IMG/VR virus record: IMGVR_UViG_2671181094_000006
DNA: 18,188 nt
Origin: a virus
Lineage: Duplodnaviria; Heunggongvirae; Uroviricota; Caudoviricetes
Strand: one strand, 5' to 3'
Below the pieces are notes generated by a model. It had not been told where the DNA came from. It made no database searches and saw only the letters and a program-made list of their open reading frames with translations. The position numbers and the translations under genes are program-made. Shown here piece after piece: positions 1 through 16,961 of the stretch (position 1 is its first letter; each line of letters begins with the position of its first letter).

Positions 1-537
1 TTACTCGTCCAGCAGAATCACTTTGCCGATATACGGCAGATGACGGTAACGCTGTGCGTAATCAATGCCGTAACCCACCACAAACTCATCCGGGATCGAG
101 AAACCGATAAATTCTACCGGGACGTTCACTTCACGACGGGACGGTTTATCCAGCAGCGTACAAATCGCCAGCGACTTCGGTTCGCGCAGGCTTAAGATCT
201 CACGCACTTTCGACAGTGTATTCCCCGAGTCGATGATATCTTCAACAATCAGCACGTCCTTGCCACGGATATCTTCATCCAGATCTTTGAGGATTTTCAC
301 ATCACGGGTGGTGGACATGCCGCTACCGTAGCTGGAGGCGGTCATAAAGTCGACTTCATGAGATACCTGAACTTCACGGCACAGGTCCGCCATAAACATA
401 AATGAGCCACGCAGCAGACCAACCAGCACCATATCGCTGCCGCTGTCTTTGTAACGCTCAGTAATCTGACGACCCAGTTCGGCGATACGCGCTTTAATCT
501 CCGCTTCGGGGATCATTACTTCTACAATATGTTTCAT
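1..537 (-). CDS. hpt: hypoxanthine phosphoribosyltransferase
   Basis: 178-aa ORF with ATG at 537 and TAA at 3-1. The product ([24 protein letters not shown]...[14 protein letters not shown]...) carries the PRPP-binding motif of type I phosphoribosyltransferases and matches enterobacterial Hpt as I recall it. An in-frame GTG at about 552 could be an alternative start. Confidence 0.9.
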
Positions 538-717
538 AATCTATATATCTCACTGATTTTAATCAGTTAAATTCAATCTCACACTATGCAATTCAGTAAA
601 TATTGATACACCGATTGATATACGGATTATCGCACAGAGCCGAAATCACGCATAAGCATGAGCACATTCCAAAGAGCTGGGGATTATAGCAAGGAAATAT
701 TGTAGGGGTAATGAATA

Positions 718-754: not shown

Positions 755-1294
755 TTAATCCATGAGGCTGTTCAGTGCTTGCTCAACACTTTCATACTTC
801 TGCGTAGTTGGTTTACCTGTTGCGTTTTTAACCATTGAGAACAAAACCACCTCGCCGCTTAGGTCTGAAACACCAGTTGACTCTAAATACGGCAATAATT
901 CTTTCTCATAGAACTCAATTTCTTTTAGTAGCATTTCATCAGGCCTACCAGCCCAAGAATTACGCTCCGGGGACTTTCCACGTTTTATAGAGTAATTAAG
1001 CGAAAATTCTTTATTTTCATATTTGAACTCAACTGCACCATCACAACCAAAGAAGCTTCCTGTGAGTTTTGAGAAATCAATGAGAGTATCAAGGCCGCCG
1101 TTATAAGTGGCTTTCAACTTAGGAGTCTGGCCTGTAATTGTAAATCCTTTAGATTTAAAAAATTCCAAAACATCTTTCTGAATAGCGGTAGCAGCATCAT
1201 TTATTTGTTTATTCAACAACTCGCGCCGAGGAGCGCTGAATTCTTCAATTTTTGCTTTAAGATCTTGTAGTTTCATTTTGTTAGCTAATGACAT
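755..1294 (-). CDS. hypothetical protein, AT-rich orphan cargo gene (179 aa from ATG 1294; the ORF track extends to 1369)
   Basis: Preferred start MSLANKMKLQDLKAKIEEF is preceded by AAGGAA at about 7 nt spacing. Codon usage is visibly AT-rich compared with hpt and the island backbone. No motif recognised. Confidence 0.6.
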   Translation of the reverse strand: MSLANKMKLQDLKAKIEEFSAPRRELLNKQINDAATAIQKDVLEFFKSKGFTITGQTPKLKATYNGGLDTLIDFSKLTGSFFGCDGAVEFKYENKEFSLNYSIKRGKSPERNSWAGRPDEMLLKEIEFYEKELLPYLESTGVSDLSGEVVLFSMVKNATGKPTTQKYESVEQALNSLMD

Positions 1295-1502: not shown

Positions 1503-1547
1503 TACTAATGTATGATAGCACTGTCATACAATAAGGAATCTCCCACT
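1503..1547 (+). promoter_or_regulatory. conserved promoter/operator of paralog A (TATGAT -10-like element inside the inverted repeat TGTATGA-N8-TCATACA, then AAGGAA RBS)
   Basis: About 45 bp upstream of the start is conserved with the equivalent region at 5885-5929 (tgtatgatag..ct.tc..acaataaggaa). Confidence 0.45.
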
Positions 1548-1907
1548 ATGAGACTAACCAGCCGCAAAAAGACGATACTCAGCTACTTCGAACCGGATAA
1601 CCGCGACTGGGTGACGGGTGAGATCGGCGCACCTCCCCTTGATGTATCCGGCGTGGCGTACCTGCTGTATGGGACAGGCCTCGAAGACAACCGGCACTGG
1701 CTCGAATCCACCAGACGAACGCTGGAAGCAATGGTGAAAGATGGGTTGCTGGAGAGGTACCGGAGCAGGGAGGCGCGGAGTATCGTTATGGGCGGCGAGA
1801 CGACCGCTACCGTTGTCCGTTACGGCCTGCCGGGTACCGTTTCAGTGGTACGCGATACGGGAGGTGCAGACGGCACGATAGAAGGCGAATATGTGCGGGT
1901 CGTTTAA
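1548..1907 (+). CDS. conserved hypothetical protein, paralog A1 (119 aa), possible winged-helix-like regulator
   Basis: MRLTSRKKTILSYFEPDNRDWVTGEIGAPPLDVSGVAYLLYG... aligns along its whole length with the 5930-6289 product (MRMTSRKKEILSYFEPDNRDWVTGEIGAPPFDVSGVAYLLHG...). Start and upstream region are conserved between the two copies. Confidence 0.7.
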   Translation: MRLTSRKKTILSYFEPDNRDWVTGEIGAPPLDVSGVAYLLYGTGLEDNRHWLESTRRTLEAMVKDGLLERYRSREARSIVMGGETTATVVRYGLPGTVSVVRDTGGADGTIEGEYVRVV

Positions 1908-2095
1908 CGACGTGGATTATCTGGCCTCTTCCACTGGTAGGCTGGTGCCGTCATCCTCCGGCGGTGCCGTTCTTTAGCAGCGAGCGTTCCCGCAACCCTG
2001 CAACGTAACTCCAGCATATCGGTGGCATTCAGCTCATTCCCCTGCAGGCGGGCCAGCTCTTCAATTACCGCCTCGATTTTCTTCTGTTTTAACAC
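1904..2095 (-). CDS. small hypothetical protein A2 (63 aa, GTG start) with C-terminal APAYQWKRP...RR motif
   Basis: Convergent with A1, with the stops overlapping by 4 nt. The C-terminal motif is shared with the 6945-7130 product (RAPAYQWKKPAPRR). AGGAA lies 8 nt upstream of the GTG. Confidence 0.5.
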   Translation of the reverse strand: MLKQKKIEAVIEELARLQGNELNATDMLELRCRVAGTLAAKERHRRRMTAPAYQWKRPDNPRR

Positions 2096-2201
2096 GCTAT
2101 ATCTTCCTGCTCTATAGGCTCACCGGCTACGCCCTGAGCATCGTTATAAAAAGCCAGCCCCGGAGGGCTGGAATAACAGGAGCCCGCTGGCACACTTTGC
2201 T

Positions 2202-2789
2202 TTAATCGGTATCGTCGGCCAGGGCATACAGCAACGAAGGGATCACTCTCCGCATGGCTGTTTCTTCGGTTTCATCGCTCATGAGAGTCAGGGTGTAATC
2301 CCGGCACTCGTAAATCACATCATATGCAGACAGGCCGAACGCGCCGCCCGCAATGATCTGCCCAATTTCAACATCTGGCGTTTCAACAATCGACAGCCGG
2401 TAGCCGCCGAACGTCACAGGAGGGTTATAAGGCCCTTCGCTTACAAACAGCTCTACGGCCTTTGCAGCAACCTGGGCTCGTTCGTCCGGGTCCACCCCGG
2501 ACACCTTACCGGCACCTGACACCATGATGCGCTTAATCTCCGCAACACTCATTTCCACCAGCGTATACCCCTGCACCTCACCAGCTGGAGCAGGCTTGGT
2601 TTTACCCCTGGCATTCTTCGTACGCGGGTCACTGGCGCTGCGGTATCGTGCCAGATAAGTATCACAGGCCTCCTGGTCAATCTTCCCGTCAACCCGCGCC
2701 GGAAATCCTTCATGACTCTCCCAGTTATACAGTGCCTGCCGGCTCATTCCGGCATGTTTTGCGTACTGGCTGACGCTCATTAGTGACAT
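2202..2789 (-). CDS. HTH DNA-binding protein, phage Nu1-like (small-terminase-like N-terminus) / packaging-associated candidate
   Basis: N-terminus VSQYAKHAGMSRQALYNWESHEGFP resembles the lambda gpNu1 winged-HTH pattern (KKQLADIFGASIRTIQNWQEQGMP). AGGAG lies 7 nt upstream of ATG 2789. The gene sits beside a dense TGTCAA repeat array. Confidence 0.6.
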   Translation of the reverse strand: MSLMSVSQYAKHAGMSRQALYNWESHEGFPARVDGKIDQEACDTYLARYRSASDPRTKNARGKTKPAPAGEVQGYTLVEMSVAEIKRIMVSGAGKVSGVDPDERAQVAAKAVELFVSEGPYNPPVTFGGYRLSIVETPDVEIGQIIAGGAFGLSAYDVIYECRDYTLTLMSDETEETAMRRVIPSLLYALADDTD

Positions 2790-2825
2790 AATTTTTCTCC
2801 TGCCTCATTGTCACCGGCTGGCCAG

Positions 2826-3040
2826 TGTGTCAACCCGCCGGCGGGAAACTGTCAATCAAACGTCAAGGGATCAACCGCTTGACACTTTTTTCTGTCAACT
2901 TGACACTTTTCGGGCTGAAAGTGTCAATCAAACTGTCAATCAAAACTTTCACGAATTCCCCTGCATCACGCGCCGCCTCTGGACCTTAACAACCTGACAA
3001 CAAAAAAGTGTCAAGTGTAAAGTGTCAATCAAATTGAAAA
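2826..3040. repeat. array of TGTCAA / TTGACA motifs (four copies of TGTCAATCAAA, several GTGTCAA/TTGACAC, palindrome TGTCAAnTTGACA, 12-bp palindrome CCCGCCGGCGGG); candidate protein-binding (cosB-like or operator) region
   Basis: Read directly from the sequence in the 350-bp non-coding gap between the tfa stop (3138) and the Nu1-like gene start (2789). Confidence 0.6.
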
Positions 3041-3137
3041 CCTGCAGCTACAAAAACACTGCGGCGCGCAATGCCCGTGCCTTACAAAAGTCTCAGGAAG
3101 GACCCATTTTTTCTGAGGGCCATTCCATAGTTATCAC

Positions 3138-3563
3138 TTAATGAACTTCCGGCATCACAGGCCATTCAATATCTGGGGCATCATCAGGGTTAACACGACT
3201 GAGCAGAACGGAGTATTTTTCCCAGTGTTCCAGTCGCGTTTTTTCATCCAAGGTAGCCATTCCGTATTTCACAGCACGCGCTAAAGGGACGATAACGTCC
3301 TCAGCCTTTGTACGTTGCCGCTCTTTTTCAGCCCCAGCCAGCCTGGATAACTGTGCTTTGGTCTGTGGAGGTACATCGACCCACGAGGGCAAGCCATCAG
3401 CCCCTACCCCCCTTTGCTTACCTTCTGGTGGAACCCTGGTGAACTCGTGAAAAACGTTATCACTGACTGCTATAAGGTCCGCTGGTAGAGAATTGTTGTC
3501 CCGATAAGCTGGTAATAATTCATCAGGGTAAAAACACGCCGTTGACGCACTAAAATGATACAT
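3138..3563 (-). CDS. tail fibre assembly protein (Tfa-like chaperone)
   Basis: Start MYHFSASTACFYPDE and C-terminus HWEKYSVLLSRVNPDDAPDIEWPVMPEV match the conserved ends of phage Tfa chaperones (...W.KYR.LL.RVD...APDIEWP..P). Its ATG at 3563 follows the upstream TAG at 3566-3568 closely. Confidence 0.7.
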   Translation of the reverse strand: MYHFSASTACFYPDELLPAYRDNNSLPADLIAVSDNVFHEFTRVPPEGKQRGVGADGLPSWVDVPPQTKAQLSRLAGAEKERQRTKAEDVIVPLARAVKYGMATLDEKTRLEHWEKYSVLLSRVNPDDAPDIEWPVMPEVH

Positions 3564-3565
3564 GA

Positions 3566-4099
3566 CTATTCCCCTATAGCTAACCATCCAAAATTATCTG
3601 CATTACCCGAACTGCCGCTGATCCAGCCATATGCACGGAAACCGGAATTGGAATCATTGGTTACGGACACGTAACGATTTCCATCTGCGTACTTCGTAGC
3701 AACAATAGCAATAGCCCGCTTAGGAAAAGGTATCGGATACTGAACATTACCTGATGGTGAATTAATAGTGGCAGTTCCCATTTGAACAATAATATTTTTC
3801 TTTTCACCTGATGGTGTTCGGGTAGGAATAATACAGTAACCCTGTGAAGTAAGGGCACCTACGATGGGTTCAGATAGAAGGGCGGTGATCCTCAACTCAT
3901 CAATAACTTCGTTTAACTGACCATCATTTTCAGGCTCAAGCTGGCGGCCAGAACCCTCTACCACGCCCACCATCTCACGCTGCCAGGTATTAAAAATATC
4001 GGCAACAAGAATTGTTGGTGATACCCCATTAGCAACATTACCTTGTGTAAATTCCCCATTACTATCAGCAGTATCAGTGACTGAACTTATCTTACGCAT
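3566..4099 (-). CDS. tail-fibre-tip-like protein (177 aa), too short for a full fibre
   Basis: Directly upstream of and coupled to tfa, which is the usual fibre-chaperone arrangement. The C-terminal half is Gly/Ser/Asn-rich and looks beta-rich (...GWISGSSGNADNFGWLAIGE). The call is mainly positional. Confidence 0.45.
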   Translation of the reverse strand: MRKISSVTDTADSNGEFTQGNVANGVSPTILVADIFNTWQREMVGVVEGSGRQLEPENDGQLNEVIDELRITALLSEPIVGALTSQGYCIIPTRTPSGEKKNIIVQMGTATINSPSGNVQYPIPFPKRAIAIVATKYADGNRYVSVTNDSNSGFRAYGWISGSSGNADNFGWLAIGE

Positions 4100-4127
4100 T
4101 ATGCATATCCTTTAATTGATATCTTCG

Positions 4128-4586
4128 CTATATAGAAAGCGTATCTGCCATACTCACCGGCTCGATATACTTCTCAAGCGCTAACAGAGCGGCGTTAAAA
4201 CCAGCACGATAGCCGTTTGTGTCACCGTTAATCATGCTGTGTTGAAATGCCGCCATGTTCTGGTCTTCGGCATCAAGGAACTCCCAGCCAGGATAAACTT
4301 TCTCCATAGCCCGCCGGGTAAAACGACTGAGCTGGCGAGCGCTGCCTTTTAGTCTGGCAATAGCCTTCTGATGTGGGATCCCTTCCGCGATAAGATGAAA
4401 TGCCTGTATCGGATTTTGTTTTGCCGCTTTGCTCACCGCTATCAGATGCGCATCAGAATGGGGGCATTCAGGGAGTTCCTCTTCTTCAAGCGATTGCTGA
4501 AGCTGGTGCATACGCTGCATACGGCGCCCGGAAAAGCCATATGCATGCGCATCAGGTTGCTGCTTGTTGAGGTGCTGAAAGTTCAT
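4128..4586 (-). CDS. hypothetical protein, paralog of the 4607-5290 product (start taken at MNFQHLNK)
   Basis: Shares N-terminus (MxFxHL) and the central block WEF.D.E...NGY.A...AL.AL.K..EP with the upstream gene. GGAG lies about 9 nt upstream of ATG 4586. Confidence 0.6.
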   Translation of the reverse strand: MNFQHLNKQQPDAHAYGFSGRRMQRMHQLQQSLEEEELPECPHSDAHLIAVSKAAKQNPIQAFHLIAEGIPHQKAIARLKGSARQLSRFTRRAMEKVYPGWEFLDAEDQNMAAFQHSMINGDTNGYRAGFNAALLALEKYIEPVSMADTLSI

Positions 4587-4606
4587 AACGCTCATCTCCG
4601 CAGCTC

Positions 4607-5290
4607 TCAGAGAGGAACCTGCGATTTTAGGAGTTCGGCTTCTCGTGCCGGCCCTTCAATCTTGCCATTCACCCGACGGGTATCCCCCGGCAGGCTCACA
4701 CCAGATGCCCGGATACGATCGTTACGGCGTGCAGCAGCCTGCGCGACCTCTTCCCGGTACTCTTCGTCAGCCTTACGGCGAGCATTCACATTCTGAGGTG
4801 ACATAGGGTCATAGTCGTTTTGCATCTTAGATGCCTTGCTGGCTAATGCCTTAATCTCGTCTTCTGTCAGAGGCTCTTCCATCTTCTTCAGCGCCTTCAG
4901 AGCGCTACTCTGGGCAGCAGAGTAACCATTTGCATCACGGTTCTGCGTTGAAAACGTTAGCGCCGAGCGAGCTTTCTCTTCGTCATCCTGAAATTCCCAG
5001 GTCGGGTCATTCTCTTCCATAAACTTTTGGGTAAACACAGAAAGCGCCATCGGCGACGATGCCAGTTGCAGCTTTATTTTCTTCGAAGAAAGTTCCGTTT
5101 CCTTCAGCAAACGAACCGCCAGAACCGGGTTATTTTTTGCCTCCGGGGAAACCGCGACATTGTGGCCGCGACTGTGCTGCTTAGGTCTGGCGATCCGGGC
5201 GTCGTCACTGTCCAGTTTCAGTGGCACATTCCCGTTATCAGACTCGCCTTTCGTTTTGGTTTTGCCTGACAGATGCGAGAAATCAAACAT
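4607..5290 (-). CDS. hypothetical protein, longer paralog with Lys/Glu-rich C-terminal extension (start taken at MFDFSHLSGK; the ORF track extends to 5383)
   Basis: Paralogy with 4128-4586 supports the internal start at 5290 (GAGGAA upstream). The alternative start at 5383 also has a GAGGAAA RBS. Confidence 0.55.
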   Translation of the reverse strand: MFDFSHLSGKTKTKGESDNGNVPLKLDSDDARIARPKQHSRGHNVAVSPEAKNNPVLAVRLLKETELSSKKIKLQLASSPMALSVFTQKFMEENDPTWEFQDDEEKARSALTFSTQNRDANGYSAAQSSALKALKKMEEPLTEDEIKALASKASKMQNDYDPMSPQNVNARRKADEEYREEVAQAAARRNDRIRASGVSLPGDTRRVNGKIEGPAREAELLKSQVPL

Positions 5291-5327
5291 GGATGGGTTT
5301 TCCTCAGATAGTTGGGGCTGTTTTTTC

Positions 5328-5528
5328 TTATCTTTCGTACCGAACGCTCTTAGCGCCCATGCGGGTAACGTCATTAACGGCATGGCATGCTTTCCTCTGG
5401 TTGGCGATTATCCGGCGGAGCCACATGAGTTTTTTCTTCTGCTTTCTGAACAGGCGCTCTCTCTTCGCCGCGGCAAACCATTCCGGTAACACCCAGCTTG
5501 TTTTGCTCCTGCACTCCTGGCACGGCAT
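5328..5528 (-). CDS. small basic hypothetical protein (66 aa)
   Basis: Its ATG overlaps the stop of the upstream 58-aa gene as TAATG, suggesting translational coupling. No motif recognised. Confidence 0.35.
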   Translation of the reverse strand: MPCQECRSKTSWVLPEWFAAAKRERLFRKQKKKLMWLRRIIANQRKACHAVNDVTRMGAKSVRYER

Positions 5529-5704
5529 TACTTTTTATTTGTTTCATGTCTACTAATCCCCTGACGTAAAAGGTGACGCGCCAGCTCCTGAATACTCGGG
5601 GCTGCGCCTACGGTAGAACGTCGGCATTCATCCTCACGGAGGCGCTGTAAACCTTCGAGAATCGGCTGATCAACAAGAATCGGCTTTTTGTTAGTGACTG
5701 CCAT
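5528..5704 (-). CDS. small putative DNA-binding protein (58 aa, ribbon-helix-helix/Arc-like pattern); not in the ORF track because it is under 60 aa
   Basis: Translated by hand: MAVTNKKPILVDQPILEGLQRLREDECRRSTVGAAPSIQELARHLLRQGISRHETNKK. A strong AGGAGG RBS lies 7 nt upstream of ATG 5704. It is the first gene of the leftward operon, divergent from 5930-6289. Confidence 0.45.
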   Translation of the reverse strand: MAVTNKKPILVDQPILEGLQRLREDECRRSTVGAAPSIQELARHLLRQGISRHETNKK

Positions 5705-5884
5705 TTCCTGACCTCCTGATACTGGTTAAACGTACATACTTCTTCTGTATGGGGTTAACTTATGATCAATAAAATAAATCGTCAAGATAAAATATTTTAA
5801 TTAAAAGGGTTGCGGACTACATGAGGGGGTACTGATTGCGTTACAAAATGGAGGGGAAAGTTAAGTAGCCATTCCTCACCGCTT

Positions 5885-5929
5885 CTTATTGTATGATAGT
5901 GCTATCCCACAATAAGGAACCTGCCAGCC
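5885..5929 (+). promoter_or_regulatory. conserved promoter/operator of paralog B (TATGAT -10-like element, inverted repeat GATAG-N2-CTATC, AAGGAA RBS)
   Basis: Conserved with 1503-1547. Confidence 0.45.
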
Positions 5930-6289
5930 ATGAGAATGACCAGCCGCAAAAAAGAGATACTCAGCTACTTTGAACCGGATAACCGCGATTGGGTAACAGG
6001 TGAGATTGGTGCGCCGCCGTTCGATGTGTCGGGTGTGGCCTACCTGCTTCATGGCATGGGATCATTCGGTAAACGCCACCAGCTCGAATCAACCCGGCGT
6101 ACGCTCGAAAGCATGGTTGCCGGTGGACTGCTTGAGCGAATGACAGTGTATGAATCCCGTCAGGTACGGCGCGGCGGTGAAACCAGCGCAACAGTCGTGC
6201 GCTACGGTTTACCGGGACAGTGTGCCGTTGTGCGAGATAGTGGCGGCGCTGATAACGCAATACCAGGTGAATACATGCGGGTCAGTTAA
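5930..6289 (+). CDS. conserved hypothetical protein, paralog B1 (119 aa)
   Basis: Full-length similarity to the 1548-1907 product; about 80% nucleotide identity over the first 130 nt by eye. Confidence 0.7.
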   Translation: MRMTSRKKEILSYFEPDNRDWVTGEIGAPPFDVSGVAYLLHGMGSFGKRHQLESTRRTLESMVAGGLLERMTVYESRQVRRGGETSATVVRYGLPGQCAVVRDSGGADNAIPGEYMRVS

Positions 6290-6824
6290 GAGCCTGCAAT
6301 CTGTCGTTGATGCGGCTCAGGTCGTAAACCCGGCGTTCAATATCCAGCATCAGGAAATTGTGGATCTCGGCCTGCTCAGGATTATCAGACTCTCTGGCCT
6401 GTAATAGCAATTCATTGTATCCATGCAAGCCGCCTGAGTTTTCCGCCGGGGTGGTGCCTTTCCCACGCAGGCAGCTAATGGGCTGATTACTCGTATCGTG
6501 TGTTTGCTTCTCCAGCACAATGACGCAATCCCACCAGTCGCCAAAGTCATACGTGTAAACCAGCTTGTCACCCTCATTCTGGAGCGCTGCCCATAGTGGT
6601 GTGATTGCCGCGTTACCCATGCTTTCACCCTCACCCCATACGCGATACTCGCTACCTAGATCACCTTTACGGCCTTTCTCGAACATATACAGATGTTCGT
6701 CATTCCAGCCAAAAGCCAACTGGATCACCGCGTGAAGTTCACTAAAGGGGATTTGCTCTGGAACCAGCACACGCCGCCATATTGGTGGTTTGCTGTCTCG
6801 GATGGTTATCTTTAGCTGGTACAT
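6282..6824 (-). CDS. pRiA4b ORF-3-like family protein (start taken at MYQLKITIRDSKPPIWRR)
   Basis: The N-terminal signature YQLKITIRDSKPPIWRRVLVP...LHAVIQLAFGWNDEHLYMF matches my recollection of the PRiA4b ORF-3-like domain. AGGA-containing RBS upstream of ATG 6824. Stop overlaps the B1 stop by 8 nt. Confidence 0.6.
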   Translation of the reverse strand: MYQLKITIRDSKPPIWRRVLVPEQIPFSELHAVIQLAFGWNDEHLYMFEKGRKGDLGSEYRVWGEGESMGNAAITPLWAALQNEGDKLVYTYDFGDWWDCVIVLEKQTHDTSNQPISCLRGKGTTPAENSGGLHGYNELLLQARESDNPEQAEIHNFLMLDIERRVYDLSRINDRLQALN

Positions 6825-6944
6825 GCAAATCCTGAATAAATGCGAATCGGAAGGATAACGATACTGACGCACTCACAATTCTGTAAAGGTGAATAAAGGT
6901 AATTTGCTTAATACGCATAAGTTACATGTGGAATAATCCCATAT

Positions 6945-7130
6945 CTACCTGCGCGGCGCTGGCTTCTTCCACTGGTAGGCAGGCGCTCGCATCATCTCCC
7001 CGAACCGTTTACGCCGGACTGTATCAGCTTCAATAATACGTTCCATCTCCCGAACCTCTACCGGGGTAAGCTGGTGGCCTTCATGCTCCATTTTGGCAGC
7101 GGTCAATAAAGCTATTTCGCGTGGTGTCAT
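6945..7130 (-). CDS. small hypothetical protein B2 (61 aa) with C-terminal RAPAYQWKKPAPRR motif
   Basis: Paralog of the 1904-2095 product by its C-terminal motif. ATG at 7130. Confidence 0.55.
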   Translation of the reverse strand: MTPREIALLTAAKMEHEGHQLTPVEVREMERIIEADTVRRKRFGEMMRAPAYQWKKPAPRR

Positions 7131-7266: not shown

Positions 7267-7363
7267 TTGCTTGATGTGGACGGCTTGCTATATTGGCGGA
7301 GAATGCAAATTGTCGCAGAAGTCTATCCCGCTCCCTGACGCCCCGTGCGGGCGTTTTGCTTTT
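7267..7363 (+). ncRNA. candidate small RNA (about 60 nt): sigma70-like promoter plus intrinsic terminator on the plus strand in a minus-strand gene context
   Basis: -35 TTGCTT (7267-7272), 16-nt spacer, -10 TATATT (7289-7294). GC-rich hairpin ACGCCC-CGTGC-GGGCGT (7338-7354) is followed by TTTTGCTTTT. No ORF of substance. Confidence 0.25.
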
Positions 7364-7973
7364 ACAAAGTCAGGCCAATGCCTCTGGCTGCTTTCCCCGT
7401 CTTACGCTCAATCACGCCCGTGATTCTATCTACTACCGGACTGAATGCCTGCCAGTAAGCCATCTCCATTGCTGACAACTCTGCCCGCTTCCTGTCAAAC
7501 GTAGCCCAGCGCATCCCCTTTGGTTTTGGGAACATGCGAATATCATTAAACAGGTTATTGGTAAGGTCATTGTTGCCCCATATCGCGCATCGCTGCTGGC
7601 GTATCTTCATTCGCATCCTGTCCAGTCTGTCGGCGCTCTGGCTTTTATAGTGGAGTTTCCAGCATCCCCGGCAGCCAATATCTTTTTTGCCGATATACAG
7701 CTTCGCTACCCGCTTTATGCAGTGGGGACAGACGTACCATTCCCGCACACCATACCCGGCTTGTGTGGTCGTGGTTCTGATTGCCCGTGTAACGCCGTTG
7801 ATTGTCATGGCGTAGCTGTCGGCTTGCCGGAAGGTATAAAACGTTCCGCTTTCGGTCTGGGTATAAAGCTGCGTCCCCGGTTCGGCGTCCGCCAGCCTGC
7901 TACGCATGTGCGCAAGGAATGGCAACCCTATGCGGGGCAGGTCGGTGGTATAGCTGCGTGTTCTGCCTCTCAC
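7362..7973 (-). CDS. conserved island protein with putative zinc ribbon (CPHC...CRGC); possibly YagK/YfjJ (inovirus Gp2-like) family
   Basis: 203-aa ORF with GTG start at 7973 preceded by AGGAGG at 7 nt spacing. Cys pairs lie in WYVCPHCIKRVAKLYIGKKDIGCRGCW. The family assignment is from memory and weak. Confidence 0.6.
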   Translation of the reverse strand: MRGRTRSYTTDLPRIGLPFLAHMRSRLADAEPGTQLYTQTESGTFYTFRQADSYAMTINGVTRAIRTTTTQAGYGVREWYVCPHCIKRVAKLYIGKKDIGCRGCWKLHYKSQSADRLDRMRMKIRQQRCAIWGNNDLTNNLFNDIRMFPKPKGMRWATFDRKRAELSAMEMAYWQAFSPVVDRITGVIERKTGKAARGIGLTL

Positions 7974-9283: not shown

Positions 9284-9545
9284 TGGTGGTTCAGGTGGTT
9301 CAGTGGTTCAGTACCCCTCTAGGCCGCGCCATCTCTGGGTTTTGCTGAACCACCTTTTAAATTTATCTGGTGGTTCAGTCGCCCTTCTTGGTGGTTCACT
9401 GCCAGCCAGTGAAAATAATCCGTTTCTCTCTGGTGGTTCAAAATACCCGTTTGGTGGTTCAGTGGTGGTTCACTTTCTTACAAAAAAACATTATAAATCA
9501 ATAACAATTACTTACTGAACCACTGAACCACCTGAACCACCACAA
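9284..9545. repeat. iteron array, putative satellite origin of replication (about 12 copies of GGTGGTTCA(G/C) in both orientations, flanked by A/T-rich stretches)
   Basis: Read directly, for example tggtggttcaggtggttcagtggttcag and ctgaaccactgaaccacctgaaccacc. Lies immediately downstream of the primase-helicase gene, analogous to the P4 ori/crr iterons. Confidence 0.7.
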
Positions 9546-9567: not shown

Positions 9568-12345
9568 TTATTGCTCTGGCTGGCTTTCCTCCCCATCCGG
9601 CAGGAATTGCAAAACGTAAACGTTAATCTGCCTCCCCTGAATGCGCGGGCTTTTCCTCTGAAATTTTTTTCCGTCTGCCGAAGGGGTAAGCATCCCCGAT
9701 TCTTTCAGGACGCGGGCCACCTGCTGCCTGTTAAACCCCTTAGCAATATCCTTATCGAAAGTGTCGGGGAACGTGTAAAACGTTATCGGTGAATCGTCAT
9801 GATTTCCGCGCTGCCTGTATCCAGCCAGATTATGAATCGGCAGGCTGGCGGGGTCGTAAGGCAGCGGCGCGAATCGACTCAGGCCATAGGCATTTAAAAA
9901 TGCCTCCGCCTGCTCGATGATCTGCTGGTGCTCTTTGTTCCCCGTGCCGAACTCTTTTAGCCATGCGTTATAGGCGTGCTGTATCGCATCCCGGCACGTT
10001 TGAGCATCCCAGCCAGTAACCACGCCACCCATCAGTAAAGCGGCCTCCAGAATGGCAAATCTTGCCCCTACACGGTGAACCTGTTCCCCATAGTCGGCAG
10101 GAATTAGACTGCGCCAGCGGGCCTCACACTCACGAACGGCATCAATCGCCTGTTGCTGGTGGTCTGAAAGCCATCTGATCCACTCCCTCCCGGCAGCGCC
10201 ATGATGGTTCTGGTAAGCGTCTTTCAGCGCGTCGGCGTGGTCTCTCCCTGTCTGGTACTCATGAAAGCGCACCGCCTTACTCAGCGGGATATTCAGCAGT
10301 CGCACCAGTTGCCCCGCTTTTGTCTTGCGTCCTGCGGTGGAGATGAACGTTTCTAAATCCATTTCCCCGGTGCTGATTGCCACGGTGCGCCAGCGTTTCA
10401 GATCCCGGTTGCCTCCTTCCTTTGCTCCCTGCAATTTCCCCACGCCGTTAAACAGGGCATAGGCAGACTGAGCAACGCTTATCGGGTCTGCGCCCTGTCC
10501 GACTTCATCCAGTGGCATCAGCCCGTCATTGTGGGCGGCGGCCTCGTTTATCAGCCCCAGCGCCGTTCCGTACCACGTCAGGCGCAAGGCATCAGGGTTG
10601 CCATAAAGACTGCTCGCCACGTTCTGCGTGGTTGTTTTCCCGGCGCTCGATTGCTCGTAAAAATGAATCCCGAAGCCGTCACGCTCCGCCAGCCCGATTA
10701 ACGGTGCTGCAAGTGCGGCGGCAATGCCTGTCATCATCGCGTAGTTACCGTATGCCAGACGCGCAACACTCTTACGCCAGCTCTCTGAGGTTCCCGCCAC
10801 GGTGTACCCGGCAGCGGCAGAACTGCGGCCACTGAATAAAACGGGTTGTGCAGGTGCGCCGATAATCTCCCCGTCCGGCATGATGTATGCCCCGCACTGC
10901 CAGCCAGTAGCGTGAGCAACACGCCACAATTCACGTGAGCCGCTACGCTGTAACCAGTCAGCCAGAATCGCCCGCAAGCTGCTTTTGGTGGTGACGTTAA
11001 CCCCGCCCGCTTTCAGGGTGCGCCAGCCTTCGCGCTCCCCGATATCAGCCAGGGGGATAGCCGCTGTTGTCGGTATGCCTGCGCCAAAGGCCAGCCAGCG
11101 TAATATCAGATACTGATCCTTGTCGTCCCGCCCGGTGCCGATAACGTCCATCGGTGAGGCCAGCCAGCTTTCATTGTTGATAATCTCGCCGCTTTCCTTG
11201 TCCACTTTAGGCGTGATCCAGTAAACGCCATCTTTGCGGCTCTCAATGCGGGGTTTTAGCGGGTCTTTCTCTGGCTGGTCAGTTTTACCGCCCTCAATGG
11301 CCTGTAGTTGTGGTTTCACGCATTCCCCCTGCGGCTGGTACATCGAATCATTAAACGCAGCCGTAGCGACTTCCAGCCCGTGTTGCTGGTGGTAGTCGTT
11401 CCAGTCAGCTTTGCTGTCAGTCGGTGGCAGCGATACCCAGCCAGCCACGGATAAAGCCGCTTTCTCTGCGGCCTCCTTCCCGATGTTGGTGGCTCCGGTT
11501 TCGGAGGCTGCTGTAGGGTGGTCGTTATCTGCGGCGATAATAATTTGCGACTGCGGGTGTTTCCGGCGCATTACTCCGGCAACGTGGATCAGGTTCCCGG
11601 CGTCAATTGCCGCCACTGTGAGCGCGTCAGGCCGCATCTGGTGAACGGACAGGGCGGTAGCCAGCCCCTCGGCAATCACGACGCTTTGAGGCCGTTCCAG
11701 CGCGTTTACGGCGTAATATGCCCCGCGCTTTGCCGATCCCTTAATGAGTCGCTTTTCTCCCTGCGGGGTGATGGTCTGCGCGGCTGTGACTGCGCCGGAT
11801 TCATCCACCAGCTCCAGCAATAACGAACCATCGGGCATAAGCGGGTATTTAAACCCGGTCAGCCCTTTTGATTGCAGGTACTCAGATTCTCCCTGTATGG
11901 ATCTCAGGCGCATTCCGGTATACAGACGGGCAAACGTAGCCCTTCGCTGATCTGCGTCCTCTGCTGCCTGTTTCTGGCGCTCCTGCTCACGCTGCTGGCG
12001 GTCTGCGGCTAACTGCCTCTGTCTCTGGCTGGCAGCGTCTGGTGCTGATTCTGCGGCCCGGTAATCAATACCCAGCACATCAGCGGCAAGCTGTGCCGCC
12101 TCCGTGGTGTCGCAGTTGTTCACCTTCTTAATCAGGTCTAAGCCATCGCCCGCGCCGCACTGGTTGCAGATAAAGCTGCCGCGCCCGTTGTCGTCGAATC
12201 TGAAACGGTCTTTCCCACCACATGCAGGGCAGGGGGCATGGCGGCGCGATGAATCAGGAACGTCGATAGACAATCCGGCCAGCACATAAGGCCATCGCCC
12301 TGCTGCGGCGCTGGTCACTTCGCGGATAAGGTCGATATTACGCAT
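9568..12345 (-). CDS. primase-helicase (P4 alpha-like: N-terminal zinc ribbon, TOPRIM primase, C-terminal P-loop NTPase)
   Basis: 925 aa. Zinc ribbon CPACGGKDRFRF...CNQCG, TOPRIM acidic motifs (VVIAEGLATALS ... IIIAADND), Walker A-like SSAGKTT. GGGAGG RBS upstream of ATG 12345. Confidence 0.9.
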   Translation of the reverse strand: MRNIDLIREVTSAAAGRWPYVLAGLSIDVPDSSRRHAPCPACGGKDRFRFDDNGRGSFICNQCGAGDGLDLIKKVNNCDTTEAAQLAADVLGIDYRAAESAPDAASQRQRQLAADRQQREQERQKQAAEDADQRRATFARLYTGMRLRSIQGESEYLQSKGLTGFKYPLMPDGSLLLELVDESGAVTAAQTITPQGEKRLIKGSAKRGAYYAVNALERPQSVVIAEGLATALSVHQMRPDALTVAAIDAGNLIHVAGVMRRKHPQSQIIIAADNDHPTAASETGATNIGKEAAEKAALSVAGWVSLPPTDSKADWNDYHQQHGLEVATAAFNDSMYQPQGECVKPQLQAIEGGKTDQPEKDPLKPRIESRKDGVYWITPKVDKESGEIINNESWLASPMDVIGTGRDDKDQYLILRWLAFGAGIPTTAAIPLADIGEREGWRTLKAGGVNVTTKSSLRAILADWLQRSGSRELWRVAHATGWQCGAYIMPDGEIIGAPAQPVLFSGRSSAAAGYTVAGTSESWRKSVARLAYGNYAMMTGIAAALAAPLIGLAERDGFGIHFYEQSSAGKTTTQNVASSLYGNPDALRLTWYGTALGLINEAAAHNDGLMPLDEVGQGADPISVAQSAYALFNGVGKLQGAKEGGNRDLKRWRTVAISTGEMDLETFISTAGRKTKAGQLVRLLNIPLSKAVRFHEYQTGRDHADALKDAYQNHHGAAGREWIRWLSDHQQQAIDAVRECEARWRSLIPADYGEQVHRVGARFAILEAALLMGGVVTGWDAQTCRDAIQHAYNAWLKEFGTGNKEHQQIIEQAEAFLNAYGLSRFAPLPYDPASLPIHNLAGYRQRGNHDDSPITFYTFPDTFDKDIAKGFNRQQVARVLKESGMLTPSADGKKFQRKSPRIQGRQINVYVLQFLPDGEESQPEQ

Positions 12346-15648: not shown

Positions 15649-15933
15649 TTAGGCCGATTTACGGCTATATGGGTTATTGACGTTAGGTACAGCAGGGGGA
15701 TTACGAACCCACCAGAGCACATCGGACAAAAGCCAGGCGCAGCTATTGCGGCCAAAGTGGCAGCGCGGAGGAAAGCGGCCCTCTTGCTCCATCTTCCAAC
15801 GACTGGAGCGGGAAAGGCTTGTGATTTCGCCACATTCATCTTCACGAATCCGGCGATCAAACTTGAAGCCGTACTCCTCAAGAAGGTTACGGCGTTGTTC
15901 GGGGTTAGGTGGGGTAAAGATAATATTGTTCAT
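15649..15933 (-). CDS. alpA: AlpA-family phage transcriptional regulator (HTH)
   Basis: ...ITSLSRSSRWKMEQEGRFPPRCHFGRNSCAWLLSDVLWWVRN is typical of the AlpA HTH. Start taken at ATG 15933 with GGAGG 4 nt upstream; the ORF track extends to 15981. Confidence 0.75.
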   Translation of the reverse strand: MNNIIFTPPNPEQRRNLLEEYGFKFDRRIREDECGEITSLSRSSRWKMEQEGRFPPRCHFGRNSCAWLLSDVLWWVRNPPAVPNVNNPYSRKSA

Positions 15934-16029: not shown

Positions 16030-16869
16030 TTACTCATCGACAGAGAAAGGGATATCAACATTATCAACCCATCCCTGAACAGCCCTTCCTGAGGGTGCCA
16101 CGATGTTAAGATTTTTAAAATCTTTGCTTATATCACTGTCATTTTTATCAAGAAATCGGCGCGGATTTTCTGCCACCTCGTTTCCATAATGAATGCGCAA
16201 AAGCGACTTTATAAACTGAGCACGTTTATTTATGGTTTTTGCTGAGTGAGCTTCATCGGGATTTTTTGACGGTTCTATCTTTTCTTTTTCACCATTAATA
16301 TAACTTGGAAATTCATCACCATCATTACATTTTTTAATTGAAACAAAATCAGATTTAGAAATATAGAGATCTTCAACCTCGAAATTAAGAAATTCATCCG
16401 TTTCAAAAGAAACAAACATCTTGCTTTCTGCCGAAAACCAAAAATCATCCAAGCTTGGTTGGAAACTGTAAAGTGCGGTCATTCCGTATGCATTTTGCGG
16501 TAAAGCCCATAATCCGCTAAATGAGCAGGGATAAAACCTTTCTTCGCGTGGGAGGTTATCTAAATCTATATCTTCATATCTCATTAATGAGACAACTCTG
16601 GAAAATTTATCGATGGTATATTTTTCTTTAAAAAGTTCATCTCTGAGACGTTGAGCAGATTCAAATTGTTCCTCTGTGAATCTCTTTAAATTCCTTTCTT
16701 CTTTTTCTACACCATCACCAATAAAACGGACATATCCGCGGCCTTCCTCAAAAGAAACATACAACTTGATTGCTCCAATCGAAGCCCAATGAAGCAAATC
16801 TTCAACTTTACATCCGAGCAACTCAGCAGCGCGAACTACTGAGTAATATTCCCGTAATGGCATTCCCAT
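16030..16869 (-). CDS. hypothetical protein (279 aa): N-terminal HTH-like segment fused to an acidic domain of unknown function; AT-rich orphan between int and alpA
   Basis: N-terminus YYSVVRAAELLGCKVEDLLHWASIGAIKLYV resembles MerR/excisionase-type HTH. GAGGGTG RBS 5 nt upstream of ATG 16869. The gene is visibly AT-rich compared with int and alpA. Palindromes TTCCGGAA and CGGAATTTCCG lie just downstream (15996-16028). Confidence 0.7.
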   Translation of the reverse strand: MGMPLREYYSVVRAAELLGCKVEDLLHWASIGAIKLYVSFEEGRGYVRFIGDGVEKEERNLKRFTEEQFESAQRLRDELFKEKYTIDKFSRVVSLMRYEDIDLDNLPREERFYPCSFSGLWALPQNAYGMTALYSFQPSLDDFWFSAESKMFVSFETDEFLNFEVEDLYISKSDFVSIKKCNDGDEFPSYINGEKEKIEPSKNPDEAHSAKTINKRAQFIKSLLRIHYGNEVAENPRRFLDKNDSDISKDFKNLNIVAPSGRAVQGWVDNVDIPFSVDE

Positions 16870-16961
16870 ATCGTCACCCTCAACGCCCCTAAATAACTTG
16901 CGGGCCAGGCGGGTAGGGTTTCCCGCTTTTCGGTTGGCCGACCTAGACCCGCAATATCAGT

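What the first reader, a model, noticed from the sequence alone, without database searches (positions are those of the whole stretch)
1503..7130. Two diverged copies of a small regulator-like module with conserved promoter/operator
Genes 1548-1907 and 5930-6289 are full-length paralogs of about 119 aa, roughly 80% identical at the DNA level near the start. Both have a conserved 45-bp upstream region containing a TATGAT -10-like element inside inverted repeats. Each is associated with a small convergent protein ending in APAYQWK(K/R)P...RR (1904-2095 and 6945-7130). In copy B a pRiA4b-ORF3-like gene is inserted between the two partners. The copies flank the Nu1-like/fibre/paralog cluster. This could reflect tandem or composite elements, or a repeated regulatory switch such as an immunity-like or toxin-antitoxin-like pair.
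Basis: seen in the sequence. Interest (0 to 1): 0.55.

Follow-up and report, generated by a model that had tools for sequence, protein, structure and literature searches.

The report
Paired flanks of satellite cargo slots
The two repeated gene pairs are real: each is a small self-regulating DNA-binding gene facing a tiny helical-protein gene, a pair that normally marks one swappable cargo (often anti-phage) slot at the far end of a phage-satellite island, and this island has two such slots.

Summary
ORFs 1548-1907 and 5930-6289 are 74% identical 119-aa paralogs. Both are preceded by a conserved ~46-bp block holding a palindrome (TTAWTGTA-N14-TACAWTAA) that contains a -10-like TATGAT. Each faces a 61-63-aa gene ending in APAYQWK(K/R)P..RR.

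The window is one PICI-type phage satellite between hpt and gcd, with a single att core at 602-620. In about 20 species the same pair occurs once per island, at the end opposite the integrase. It brackets a variable slot that is empty or holds a pRiA4b-ORF3 gene, Panacea toxin-antitoxin pairs, SoFic, an IrrE-like peptidase or insertion sequences.

The 119-aa protein has a winged-helix fold and matches no sequence family. Its palindrome is found only directly upstream of its own gene, including in distant homologs. I infer an autoregulated DNA-binding protein that, with the small gene, forms the conserved flanks of a cargo hotspot.

The A and B copies are old, separately conserved alleles. The two-module state is a recombinational mosaic, not a local duplication or a simple tandem insertion. 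A toxin-antitoxin or immunity switch is not supported. Interest is moderate: the family is uncharacterised, but the kind of feature is known.

The parts
602..620 (.). attR core of the island (ATTGATACACCGATTGATA)
   Evidence: This is the only copy in the window. In the E. coli EC09 island the same 19-mer is repeated just outside int and next to hpt.
755..1294 (-). Terminal low-GC cargo gene p179, between wHTH_A and attR
   Evidence: ORF list. It matches phrog_14564, of unknown function. GC is 0.39. It is replaced by a KilA-N gene in L049 and is absent in L029.
1503..1547 (+). Conserved promoter/operator block A. The palindrome is at 1505-1534, the -10-like TATGAT at 1511-1516 and the Shine-Dalgarno AAGGA at 1534-1538.
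1548..1907 (+). wHTH_A: the 119-aa winged-helix protein, A-type allele
1904..2095 (-). sm63_A: the 63-aa helical-hairpin protein with the APAYQWKRP..RR tail. Its 3' end overlaps wHTH_A by 4 nt, so slot A is empty.
   Evidence: (phrog_7271, 7e-25)
2202..2789 (-). Nu1/TerS-N-terminal-like HTH protein of the extension module. A terminator-like hairpin on the minus strand at 2154-2171 follows it.
   Evidence: phrog_57 terminase small subunit, 7.9e-8, residues 1-65; terminator scan; no PDB or Rpp sequence match
2830..3036 (.). Cluster of TGTCAA/TTGACA repeats upstream of the Nu1-like gene. This is a candidate packaging (cosB-like) site.
   Evidence: (D2, I20)
3138..5704 (-). Remainder of the extension module: Tfa (3138-3587), tail-fibre-like gene (3566-4099), p155 (4128-4595), p258 (4607-5383), p58 (5528-5704)
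   Evidence: The module is shared with hpt islands that lack module B, up to window position 5870.
5885..5929 (+). Conserved promoter/operator block B. The palindrome is at 5886-5915 and TATGAT at 5892-5897. Its left edge is the left boundary of module B in every comparison.
5930..6289 (+). wHTH_B: the 119-aa winged-helix protein, B-type allele
6283..6944 (-). Cargo cassette in slot B: the pRiA4b-ORF3 family gene (6282-6824/6872) plus its own upstream region. Its 3' end overlaps wHTH_B by 8 nt.
   Evidence: Pfam PF07929, 2e-42. The empty B-type site in Shimwellia (L024) defines the cassette ends. A promoter-like site lies at 6887-6858.
6945..7130 (-). sm61_B: the 61-aa helical-hairpin protein with the APAYQWKKPAPRR tail
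7337..7355 (+). Plus-strand intrinsic-terminator-like hairpin at the far side of module B
7362..7973 (-). p203, a Cys-rich protein that usually precedes the small gene in related islands
   Evidence: It matches no family.

Best explanation
The window is one PICI-type phage satellite integrated between hpt and gcd. In this clade of enterobacterial PICIs a winged-helix gene on the opposite strand and a 61-63-aa gene that closes the late operon face each other. Together they bracket a slot into which unrelated cargo, often defence or TA genes with their own promoters, is exchanged by recombination.

What is shown:
- The pairing.
- The variability of the slot.
- The normal position of the pair at the end of the island.
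- The winged-helix fold of the 119-aa protein.
- The strict coupling of the palindrome to the wHTH gene.

What is inferred:
- The wHTH dimer binds the palindrome TTAWTGTA-N14-TACAWTAA, which covers its own -10 (TATGAT) and abuts its Shine-Dalgarno. It would therefore repress its own promoter and keep a low steady level in the integrated state.
- A and B share an invariant recognition-helix motif (ESTRRTLE) and near-identical operators, so they probably cross-regulate.
- Because the wHTH gene converges on, and overlaps the 3' end of, the cargo or small gene, its transcription may also damp or insulate cargo and late-operon read-through.

Origin of the two copies: this island has two modules because an extension (p58 to the Nu1-like gene to sm63_A and wHTH_A) and a B-type module (sm61_B, pRiA4b, wHTH_B) were combined by recombination between related islands. 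It was not an in-situ duplication.
For: Island identity:
- The island carries int, AlpA, Bro-N/Ant, primase, SSB and PerC and the int-alpA RNA motif.
- There is a single att core at 602-620, with its partner beyond int.

One module per island is the norm:
- This holds in about 20 species, with the module terminal.
- An island with a 97%-identical integrase at hpt has one module (L029).
- In 388 complete E. coli genomes carrying module B, only 3 have the p58-wHTH_B junction. All five listed single-module hits start at window position 5885.

The slot is variable:
- empty, 3-30 bp
- pRiA4b
- pRiA4b plus a Panacea TA pair
- Panacea TA pair alone
- M78/capP-like peptidase
- SoFic (1.6e-46)
- IS256 transposase
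- integrase
The module-B position in sibling hpt islands instead holds PDC-M18A/B (2.8e-133).

Fold and family:
- There is no Pfam, PHROG, NCBIfam or PADLOC hit.
- The family is tiny: 92 representatives among 1.84 billion proteins.

Operator:
- The 46-bp block is conserved in 27 distinct upstream sequences from at least 15 genera, and conservation starts abruptly at CTTATTG.
- Across 34 distinct sequences, 92% of palindrome cells are symmetric, and 8 cells show symmetric double changes (1 of 500 shuffles reaches this).
- A distant homolog has two tandem perfect palindromes of the same half-site, and another keeps TTATTGCA-N14-TACATTAA.
- In IMG/VR the motif occurs in enterobacterial-type contigs only 9-11 nt upstream of a wHTH homolog.
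- The window has only two operators.

Allele age and mosaicism:
- A- and B-type proteins are each conserved across genera.
- Module B is 99.1% identical to L004 against about 89% for the backbone, with breakpoints at 5870 and 5883.
- wHTH and small-protein divergences are correlated (r = 0.87, Mantel p = 0.0005).
Against: - No experiment supports DNA binding, repression or any effect on cargo.
- No good -35 element lies in the conserved block, and the consensus promoter scan did not call either wHTH promoter.
- Palindrome symmetry fits an RNA or DNA hairpin as well as a dimer site.
- The function of the small protein is unknown. Its fold is an uninformative helical hairpin.
- The pRiA4b family has no demonstrated defence role, so 'defence hotspot' rests on only some of the cargoes.
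- The survey covers about 50 loci, not all PICIs.
Confidence: 0.6

Rival explanations
1. The wHTH and the small protein form a toxin-antitoxin-like or immunity-like two-gene switch, present here in two copies.
For: - The two genes are nearly always linked.
- Their divergences are correlated (r = 0.87).
- The wHTH looks like an autoregulated DNA binder, as many antitoxins are.
Against: - The genes are convergent, not a co-directional bicistron.
- Cargo of 0.6-2.1 kb sits between them in most islands.
- The small gene occurs without the wHTH in a capsid-forming PICI (L017).
- The wHTH occurs without the small gene in phages and in some islands.
- Neither gene matches a TA or defence profile.
- Recombination has occurred inside the pair: L004 has wHTH 100% identical but the small protein only 66%.
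- The correlated divergence is what linkage alone would produce.
Confidence: 0.07
2. The two copies are the remains of two satellites integrated in tandem at hpt. The inner one then lost its integrase and replication half.
For: - The module normally marks an island terminus, so an internal copy looks like a former end.
- The segment from p58 to wHTH_A carries its own packaging-like gene and repeat cluster.
Against: - There is no internal att core, allowing up to 3 mismatches, and no integrase remnant.
- The same extension follows wHTH_B in an island with a different integrase and att site, and there it ends with a KilA-N gene instead of wHTH_A (L049).
- hpt islands without module B keep the extension and carry other cargo at that position.
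- These points favour module exchange by homologous recombination. A tandem-plus-deletion history cannot be excluded as the ultimate origin.
Confidence: 0.15
3. The conserved palindrome works as an RNA hairpin in the wHTH leader that sequesters the Shine-Dalgarno. This would be translational control or transcript stabilisation rather than a protein operator.
For: - The right arm overlaps the SD.
- Copy B folds to -13.2 kcal/mol and copy A to -11.4 kcal/mol.
- 92% of cells are paired, with some double changes.
Against: - The fold z-scores are not significant (-1.3 and -1.7).
- At the only frequently variable pair, 11 of 34 sequences are unpaired.
- Nothing upstream of the palindrome is conserved that could provide a promoter.
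- The -10-like TATGAT lies inside the left arm and spacer, so most of the left arm would not be transcribed.
- A distant homolog carries two tandem copies, which is typical of operators.
Confidence: 0.12
4. Each wHTH is a classical divergent regulator of the leftward unit on its other side: wHTH_B of the p58-to-Nu1-like operon and wHTH_A of p179. In the excised circle it would regulate int across attP.
For: - In the window both wHTH genes are divergent from a leftward gene.
- In the EC09 island int starts only about 30 bp from the att core, so after excision its upstream region is the wHTH/p179 end.
Against: - In most islands the wHTH is terminal and has no divergent island gene.
- Conservation stops at the operator edge, more than 180 bp from the p58 start.
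- hpt islands that lack wHTH_B keep the p58 upstream region unchanged up to 5870.
- In L002 about 200 bp separate int from the att core.
Confidence: 0.1

Closest known systems
Variable anti-phage hotspots of phage satellites and prophages: P4/P2 hotspots (Rousset et al. 2022, PMC9122126) and PICI accessory regions at the 5' end, 3' end and next to pri (He et al. 2024, PMC11364771)
   Same: A slot bounded by conserved genes holds unrelated cargo in sibling elements. That cargo includes recognised defence or TA genes (SoFic, Panacea TA, PDC-M18). The slot lies at the far end or middle of a PICI.
   Different: The flanks here are a specific convergent pair: an orphan winged-helix gene with its own palindromic operator, and a 61-63-aa gene. 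I found no description of them in the papers I read. One island carries two such slots bounded by paralogous flanks. The most common cargo, pRiA4b-ORF3, has no known defence role.
Autoregulated winged-helix repressors (BlaI/MecI, MarR, ArsR families)
   Different: There is no detectable sequence-family membership in Pfam or NCBIfam. No ligand-binding or signal-sensing domain is evident. The C-terminal 20 residues are disordered. The half-sites are about 22 bp apart centre to centre.
EcCIMP1 alpA_1 (Pick et al. 2025, PMC11773190)
   Same: It is a small DNA-binding gene at the end of an E. coli PICI opposite int, on the opposite strand from the rest of the island, and it is dispensable for excision and transfer.
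   Different: alpA_1 belongs to the AlpA/MerR-like family, whereas the protein here is an unrelated winged-helix family. No operator or cargo-slot association was reported for alpA_1.
Non-contiguous operons and convergent overlapping gene pairs, as described for tai/ati in phage phi80 (PMC11364771)
   Same: An opposite-strand gene (wHTH_B) is embedded between co-directional genes, and its 3' end overlaps its neighbour.
   Different: Overlapping transcripts and mutual regulation are not shown here. The idea rests only on gene layout and predicted terminators.
Rpp packaging-redirection proteins of E. coli PICIs (Fillol-Salom et al. 2019, PMC6739421)
   Same: A small winged-helix DNA-binding protein encoded late in a PICI. 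EcCICFT073 also carries duplicated packaging signals (cos1 and cos2).

Membership tests
PICI (phage-inducible chromosomal island), Gram-negative type | Integrase, AlpA regulator and primase/replication module in conserved order; size about 10-20 kb | tested here: met
   The island has int 16962-18188, AlpA 15649-15933 (phrog_2790, 3.5e-38), primase 9568-12345 (phrog_1139, 9e-180), SSB and PerC. The island is about 16 kb in the sibling EC09 (att cores at L001 12602 and 28644); the window holds about 17.6 kb of its own copy from the att core, with the second core beyond its end. The Rfam int-alpA RNA scores 62.6 bits.
PICI (phage-inducible chromosomal island), Gram-negative type | Flanking direct repeats (att) at a dedicated site | tested here: met
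   A 19-bp core lies at 602-620, and it is repeated outside int in the sibling island L001.
PICI (phage-inducible chromosomal island), Gram-negative type | No phage structural or lysis genes | tested here: inconclusive
   There are no capsid, portal, terminase-large or lysis genes. A tail-fibre-like gene and a tail-fibre-assembly gene are present.
PICI (phage-inducible chromosomal island), Gram-negative type | Induction, excision and packaging by a helper phage | not testable with these tools
   This needs an experiment.
Satellite/prophage cargo (defence) hotspot | Conserved flanking genes with unrelated content between them in sibling elements | tested here: met
   Across 26 distinct module instances the gaps range from 3 to 2137 bp, and at least 8 kinds of content were listed.
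Satellite/prophage cargo (defence) hotspot | Cargo includes recognised anti-phage or TA systems | tested here: met
   SoFic 1.6e-46; capP/M78 peptidase 6e-26; Panacea antitoxin 2.4e-23; PDC-M18A/B at the alternative position. The cargo in this window (pRiA4b) has no PADLOC match.
Satellite/prophage cargo (defence) hotspot | Cargo confers phage resistance | not testable with these tools
   This needs plaque assays.
Type II toxin-antitoxin pair | Two adjacent co-transcribed genes in one operon | tested here: not met
   The genes are convergent. They overlap at their 3' ends in module A and are separated by a 662-bp cassette in module B.
Type II toxin-antitoxin pair | A recognisable toxin or antitoxin domain | tested here: not met
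   Neither protein has a Pfam, NCBIfam or PADLOC hit.
Type II toxin-antitoxin pair | Obligate co-occurrence of the two partners | tested here: not met
   Each gene is found without the other.
Winged-helix transcription regulators (MarR, ArsR, BlaI/MecI, PadR) | Winged helix-turn-helix fold | tested here: met
Winged-helix transcription regulators (MarR, ArsR, BlaI/MecI, PadR) | Sequence-profile membership in one of these families | tested here: not met
   There is no Pfam or NCBIfam match. The best distant member has only a sub-threshold HVO_A0114 hit.
Winged-helix transcription regulators (MarR, ArsR, BlaI/MecI, PadR) | Binds a dyad-symmetric operator at its own or a target promoter | tested here: inconclusive
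   A conserved dyad is strictly coupled to the gene. Binding itself was not tested.
Rpp (redirecting phage packaging) proteins | Sequence or structural relation to RppA/B/C or to the TerS N-terminal domain | tested here: not met

The most novel reading that the evidence does not exclude
The wHTH/operator gene and the small gene would form a portable 'cargo dock' with a regulatory role. An autoregulated, opposite-strand winged-helix gene would use convergent, 3'-overlapping transcription, and possibly DNA binding, to gate cargo and late-operon read-through according to the satellite's state. That would add a regulatory layer to Gram-negative PICIs, which have no known master repressor. Two docks with cross-reacting operators would let one satellite carry and co-regulate two independent cargo sets, or two helper-exploitation modules.
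Probability: 0.15. Interest if true: 0.7.

Novelty: new variant of a known kind. Interest (0 to 1): 0.4.

Why it matters
- **Hotspot landmarks.** Phage satellites are major carriers of anti-phage genes. Knowing the conserved flanks of their cargo slots gives a simple way to find new cargo. Searching for the 46-bp block or the wHTH/small-gene pair would pull out the slot contents from thousands of enterobacterial genomes.
- **An untested candidate regulator.** The wHTH is an uncharacterised family confined to satellites and phages, and it has an unusually clear candidate operator. It is therefore an easy experimental target for asking how PICI cargo is regulated in the integrated state.
- **Modular evolution.** The two-slot island shows how satellites grow by joining modules at these flanks.

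Tried and rejected
- **Lambda-type cos.** I searched for cosN (GGGCGGCGACCT, up to 2 mismatches) to link the two modules to the cos1/cos2 duplication of EcCICFT073. The only match was a chance hit inside the primase gene.
- **Rpp identity.** Neither the 119-aa protein, the Nu1-like protein nor p203 has a PDB sequence match.
- **Foldseek searches.** The wHTH model and the small-protein model gave no significant hits. The small-protein hits are prion and carboxylase helices and mean nothing.
- **Internal att site or tandem insertion.** Rejected.
- **Extra operators.** There are none elsewhere in the island. The phage collection has none by BLAST. IMG/VR has 30 pattern hits: those in enterobacterial-type contigs sit directly upstream of wHTH genes, and the rest are low-GC chance matches.
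- **Sigma-70 promoter scan.** It called no promoter for either wHTH gene.
- **Literature.** Searches on pRiA4b/PF07929 and on PICI hotspots gave no description of these flanking genes. The 2022 Cell paper on PICI immune systems is not held in the library.
- **Deep HMM search.** It did not connect the family to any named family. One member is fused to a T5orf172/MUG113 domain.

Full report
**1. What the window is.**
The window begins with hpt (1-537, minus strand) and ends with a tyrosine integrase (16962-18188, minus strand). Between them, all on the minus strand, lie these genes:
- an AlpA-family gene
- a Bro-N/antirepressor gene
- a 925-aa primase (Zn-ribbon, Toprim and DUF927 domains)
- SSB
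- PerC

Rfam finds the int-alpA RNA motif at 16886-16953. A near-identical island sits between hpt and gcd in E. coli EC09. There, a 19-bp direct repeat, ATTGATACACCGATTGATA, lies just outside int and again next to hpt. In the window that core occurs once, at 602-620, and no second copy appears even with three mismatches. The whole region is therefore one PICI-type phage satellite, and both copies of the module lie inside it.

**2. The observation.**
- The ORFs 1548-1907 and 5930-6289 are 74% identical over 118 aa.
- The 40 nt upstream are 80% identical, and each is palindromic.
- The convergent small ORFs 1904-2095 and 6945-7130 share 35% identity and the APAYQWK(K/R)P..RR tail.
- ORF 6282-6872 is a PRiA4_ORF3 protein, E 2e-42.
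- The genes between the copies are a Nu1/TerS-N-terminal-like protein, a tail-fibre-assembly protein, a tail-fibre-like protein and the partly paralogous p155 and p258.

**3. What the 119-aa protein is.**
It matches nothing in Pfam, PHROGs, NCBIfam, PADLOC or the PDB sequence set.
- A word-indexed search found 535 relatives. All those that carry a source name are from Enterobacterales, and all are called hypothetical.
- A full HMM scan of 1.84 billion representatives found only 92, many of them fragments.
- An AlphaFold model built on 42 sequences has pLDDT 79. It shows four helices followed by a beta-hairpin, with residues 99-119 disordered.
- The motif E-S-T-R-R-T-L at the start of the predicted recognition helix is invariant.

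I therefore treat it as an orphan winged-helix DNA-binding protein, called wHTH below. Distant members lie in three kinds of context:
- phage early or recombination regions
- upstream of an antirepressor gene
- another satellite
One member is fused to a T5orf172/MUG113 domain.

**4. The upstream block.**
I compared 27 distinct upstream sequences from at least 15 genera. All share ~46 bp directly before the ATG:

C-TTATTGTATGATA-nnnn-TATCCCACAATAAGGAA-nnnn-CCAGCC-ATG

Conservation starts abruptly at the left edge, and everything further upstream is unrelated. The core is a dyad, TTAWTGTA-N14-TACAWTAA.
- Over 34 distinct sequences, 92% of dyad positions are symmetric. Eight cells carry symmetric double changes, a value reached by 1 of 500 shuffles. 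At the one frequently variable position, however, 11 of 34 sequences are asymmetric.
- A homolog only about 40% identical has two tandem perfect dyads of the same half-site (TTAATGTACAAA-N5-TTTGTACATTAA). The proximal one sits at the same distance from the ATG.
- Another distant homolog keeps TTATTGCA-N14-TACATTAA.
- In the window the dyad occurs only at 1505-1534 and 5886-5915.
- In IMG/VR, every hit in an enterobacterial-type contig lies 9-11 nt upstream of a wHTH homolog. The other hits are in unrelated low-GC contigs.
- No sequenced phage in the INPHARED set carries the block.

The -10-like TATGAT lies inside the dyad, and the right arm abuts the Shine-Dalgarno. The simplest reading is that the wHTH dimer binds its own promoter. 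This is an inference.
- No -35 element is conserved, and the consensus scan called no promoter.
- An RNA hairpin that sequesters the Shine-Dalgarno is a weaker alternative. Its fold z-scores are -1.3 and -1.7.

**5. The small protein.**
It has 99 relatives; all of those that carry a source name are in Enterobacterales, and none has an informative name. It matches phrog_7271 and phrog_1561, both of unknown function. The model is a helical hairpin followed by an extended basic tail (pLDDT 86). No structural match is meaningful. A homolog is the last gene before attP-int in a packaged capsid-forming PICI, vB_KppS-Ant, which has no wHTH gene.

**6. Context survey.**
I ran tblastn with the window's proteins against 43 related loci. 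The usual plan is:

primase, SSB, PerC, (p203), small gene (minus strand), variable stretch, wHTH (plus strand), end of island

This plan occurs once per island. An island with a 97%-identical integrase at the same hpt site has a single module next to attR (L029).

The stretch between the wHTH and small genes ranges from 3 to 2137 bp. Its contents include:
- nothing
- pRiA4b-ORF3
- pRiA4b plus a Panacea-antitoxin pair
- a Panacea pair alone
- an M78/capP-like peptidase with a membrane protein
- SoFic (1.6e-46)
- an IS256 transposase
- an integrase
- a recurrent RHH-like gene

An empty B-type site in Shimwellia defines the pRiA4b cassette in the window as 6283-6944, that is, the gene plus its own upstream region. 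The wHTH and small genes are therefore the conserved flanks of a cargo slot. This matches published accounts of accessory and immune regions at the 3' end and next to pri in PICIs (PMC11364771) and of hotspots in P4 and P2 (PMC9122126).

**7. Why there are two copies.**
- A-type and B-type wHTH proteins are each conserved across several genera, so the split is old.
- Window 5883-7026 is 99.1% identical to the terminal module of islands at a different site, while the replication backbone is about 89% identical.
- hpt islands without module B match the window up to 5870, then carry PDC-M18A/B plus an insertion sequence, or three unknown genes.
- An island at dinD/yicC has wHTH_B followed by the same extension (p58 to the Nu1-like gene to sm63) but ends with a KilA-N gene instead of wHTH_A.
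- Among 5426 complete E. coli genomes, 388 carry module B and only 3 have the p58-wHTH_B junction. Module A is in 4. The identical copy-A protein is nevertheless frequent in draft assemblies.

The two-module state is a mosaic assembled by recombination at these conserved flanks. It is not a local duplication or a simple tandem insertion.

**8. Toxin-antitoxin or immunity switch?**
The divergences of the wHTH and small proteins are correlated (r = 0.87, Mantel p = 0.0005). Linkage alone would give that result, and recombination inside the pair is visible: in L004 the wHTH is 100% identical but the small protein only 66%. The genes are convergent, separable by cargo, found singly, and match no TA profile. 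The A and B operators and recognition helices are nearly the same, so the two copies would not define different immunities. I rate this reading as unlikely.

**9. How it most likely works.**
Shown:
- The conserved pair brackets an exchangeable slot.
- The 119-aa protein has a winged-helix fold.
- The dyad is coupled to the gene.

Inferred:
- The wHTH represses its own promoter.
- A and B cross-bind.
- Because the wHTH gene overlaps the 3' end of the cargo or small gene (by 8 and 4 nt), and a plus-strand terminator sits at 7337-7355 beyond module B, wHTH transcription may run antisense across the slot. It could then damp or insulate the cargo and late-operon read-through.

None of this regulatory part has been tested.

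**10. Verdict.**
The toxin-antitoxin or immunity reading is not supported.

This is a new variant of a known kind, a satellite cargo hotspot. It has a previously undescribed pair of flanking genes and an unusually clear candidate operator. Interest is moderate.

Noticed in passing
window 3138-4099 (-): This satellite carries a tail-fibre-like gene (Gp53-like_C, 1.7e-10) and a tail-fibre-assembly gene (Caudo_TAP, 1.3e-30). Sibling hpt islands have two unrelated small genes at the same place. A PICI with its own fibre could retarget helper virions.
   Followed up: partly
window 2830-3036: At least ten TGTCAA/TTGACA repeats, including an 18-nt unit in four copies, lie upstream of the Nu1-like gene 2202-2789. 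They are candidate cosB-like or R sites for a packaging-redirection protein. No lambda-type cosN is present in the window.
   Followed up: partly
window 9284-9542: GGTGGTTCAG iterons and a perfect 30-nt inverted repeat (9284-9313 with 9513-9542) lie just downstream of the primase gene. This is probably the satellite's replication origin.
   Followed up: no
window 16886-16953 (-): The Rfam int-alpA RNA motif (RF02996) scores 62.6 bits in the gap just downstream of int (16962-18188), ahead of p279 (16030-16869) and alpA.
   Followed up: no
window 7337-7355 (+): A plus-strand intrinsic-terminator-like hairpin (GACGCCC..GGGCGTT followed by a T-run) sits at the 3' end of p203. No annotated plus-strand gene lies upstream except wHTH_B, 1 kb away. 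It would stop antisense transcription across slot B.
   Followed up: partly
window 4128-5383 (-): p258 contains a segment 41-42% identical to p155, so the two adjacent genes are partial paralogs of unknown function.
   Followed up: no
window 755-1294 (-): p179 is a low-GC (0.39) terminal gene between wHTH_A and the att core. It matches phrog_14564, of unknown function. It is replaced by a KilA-N gene in L049 and absent in L029, so it looks like a second, terminal cargo position.
   Followed up: partly
L009 15174-16723; L014: hpt islands that lack module B carry the PADLOC candidate defence pair PDC-M18A/B (2.8e-133 and 2.7e-73) next to an IS3-family insertion at the equivalent position.
   Followed up: yes
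L028, L031, L032, L035, L036, L037 (slot next to the wHTH gene): In Erwinia, Pantoea, Mixta, Pluralibacter and Symbiopectobacterium islands, a ~145-aa plus-strand gene recurs directly after the wHTH gene. It has an RHH-like N-terminus (SVTFRVPAEL) and a conserved C-terminal motif (IIAERLNEAGYQTKAGKAWDKDIYSAWKR). It has no Pfam or PADLOC match.
   Followed up: partly
L041 (record titled Chryseobacterium sp. 18061): A contig labelled Chryseobacterium carries an enterobacterial-type island with the same operator, p203, SSB and primase at 78-83% identity. This is probably contamination or mislabelling of the assembly.
   Followed up: no
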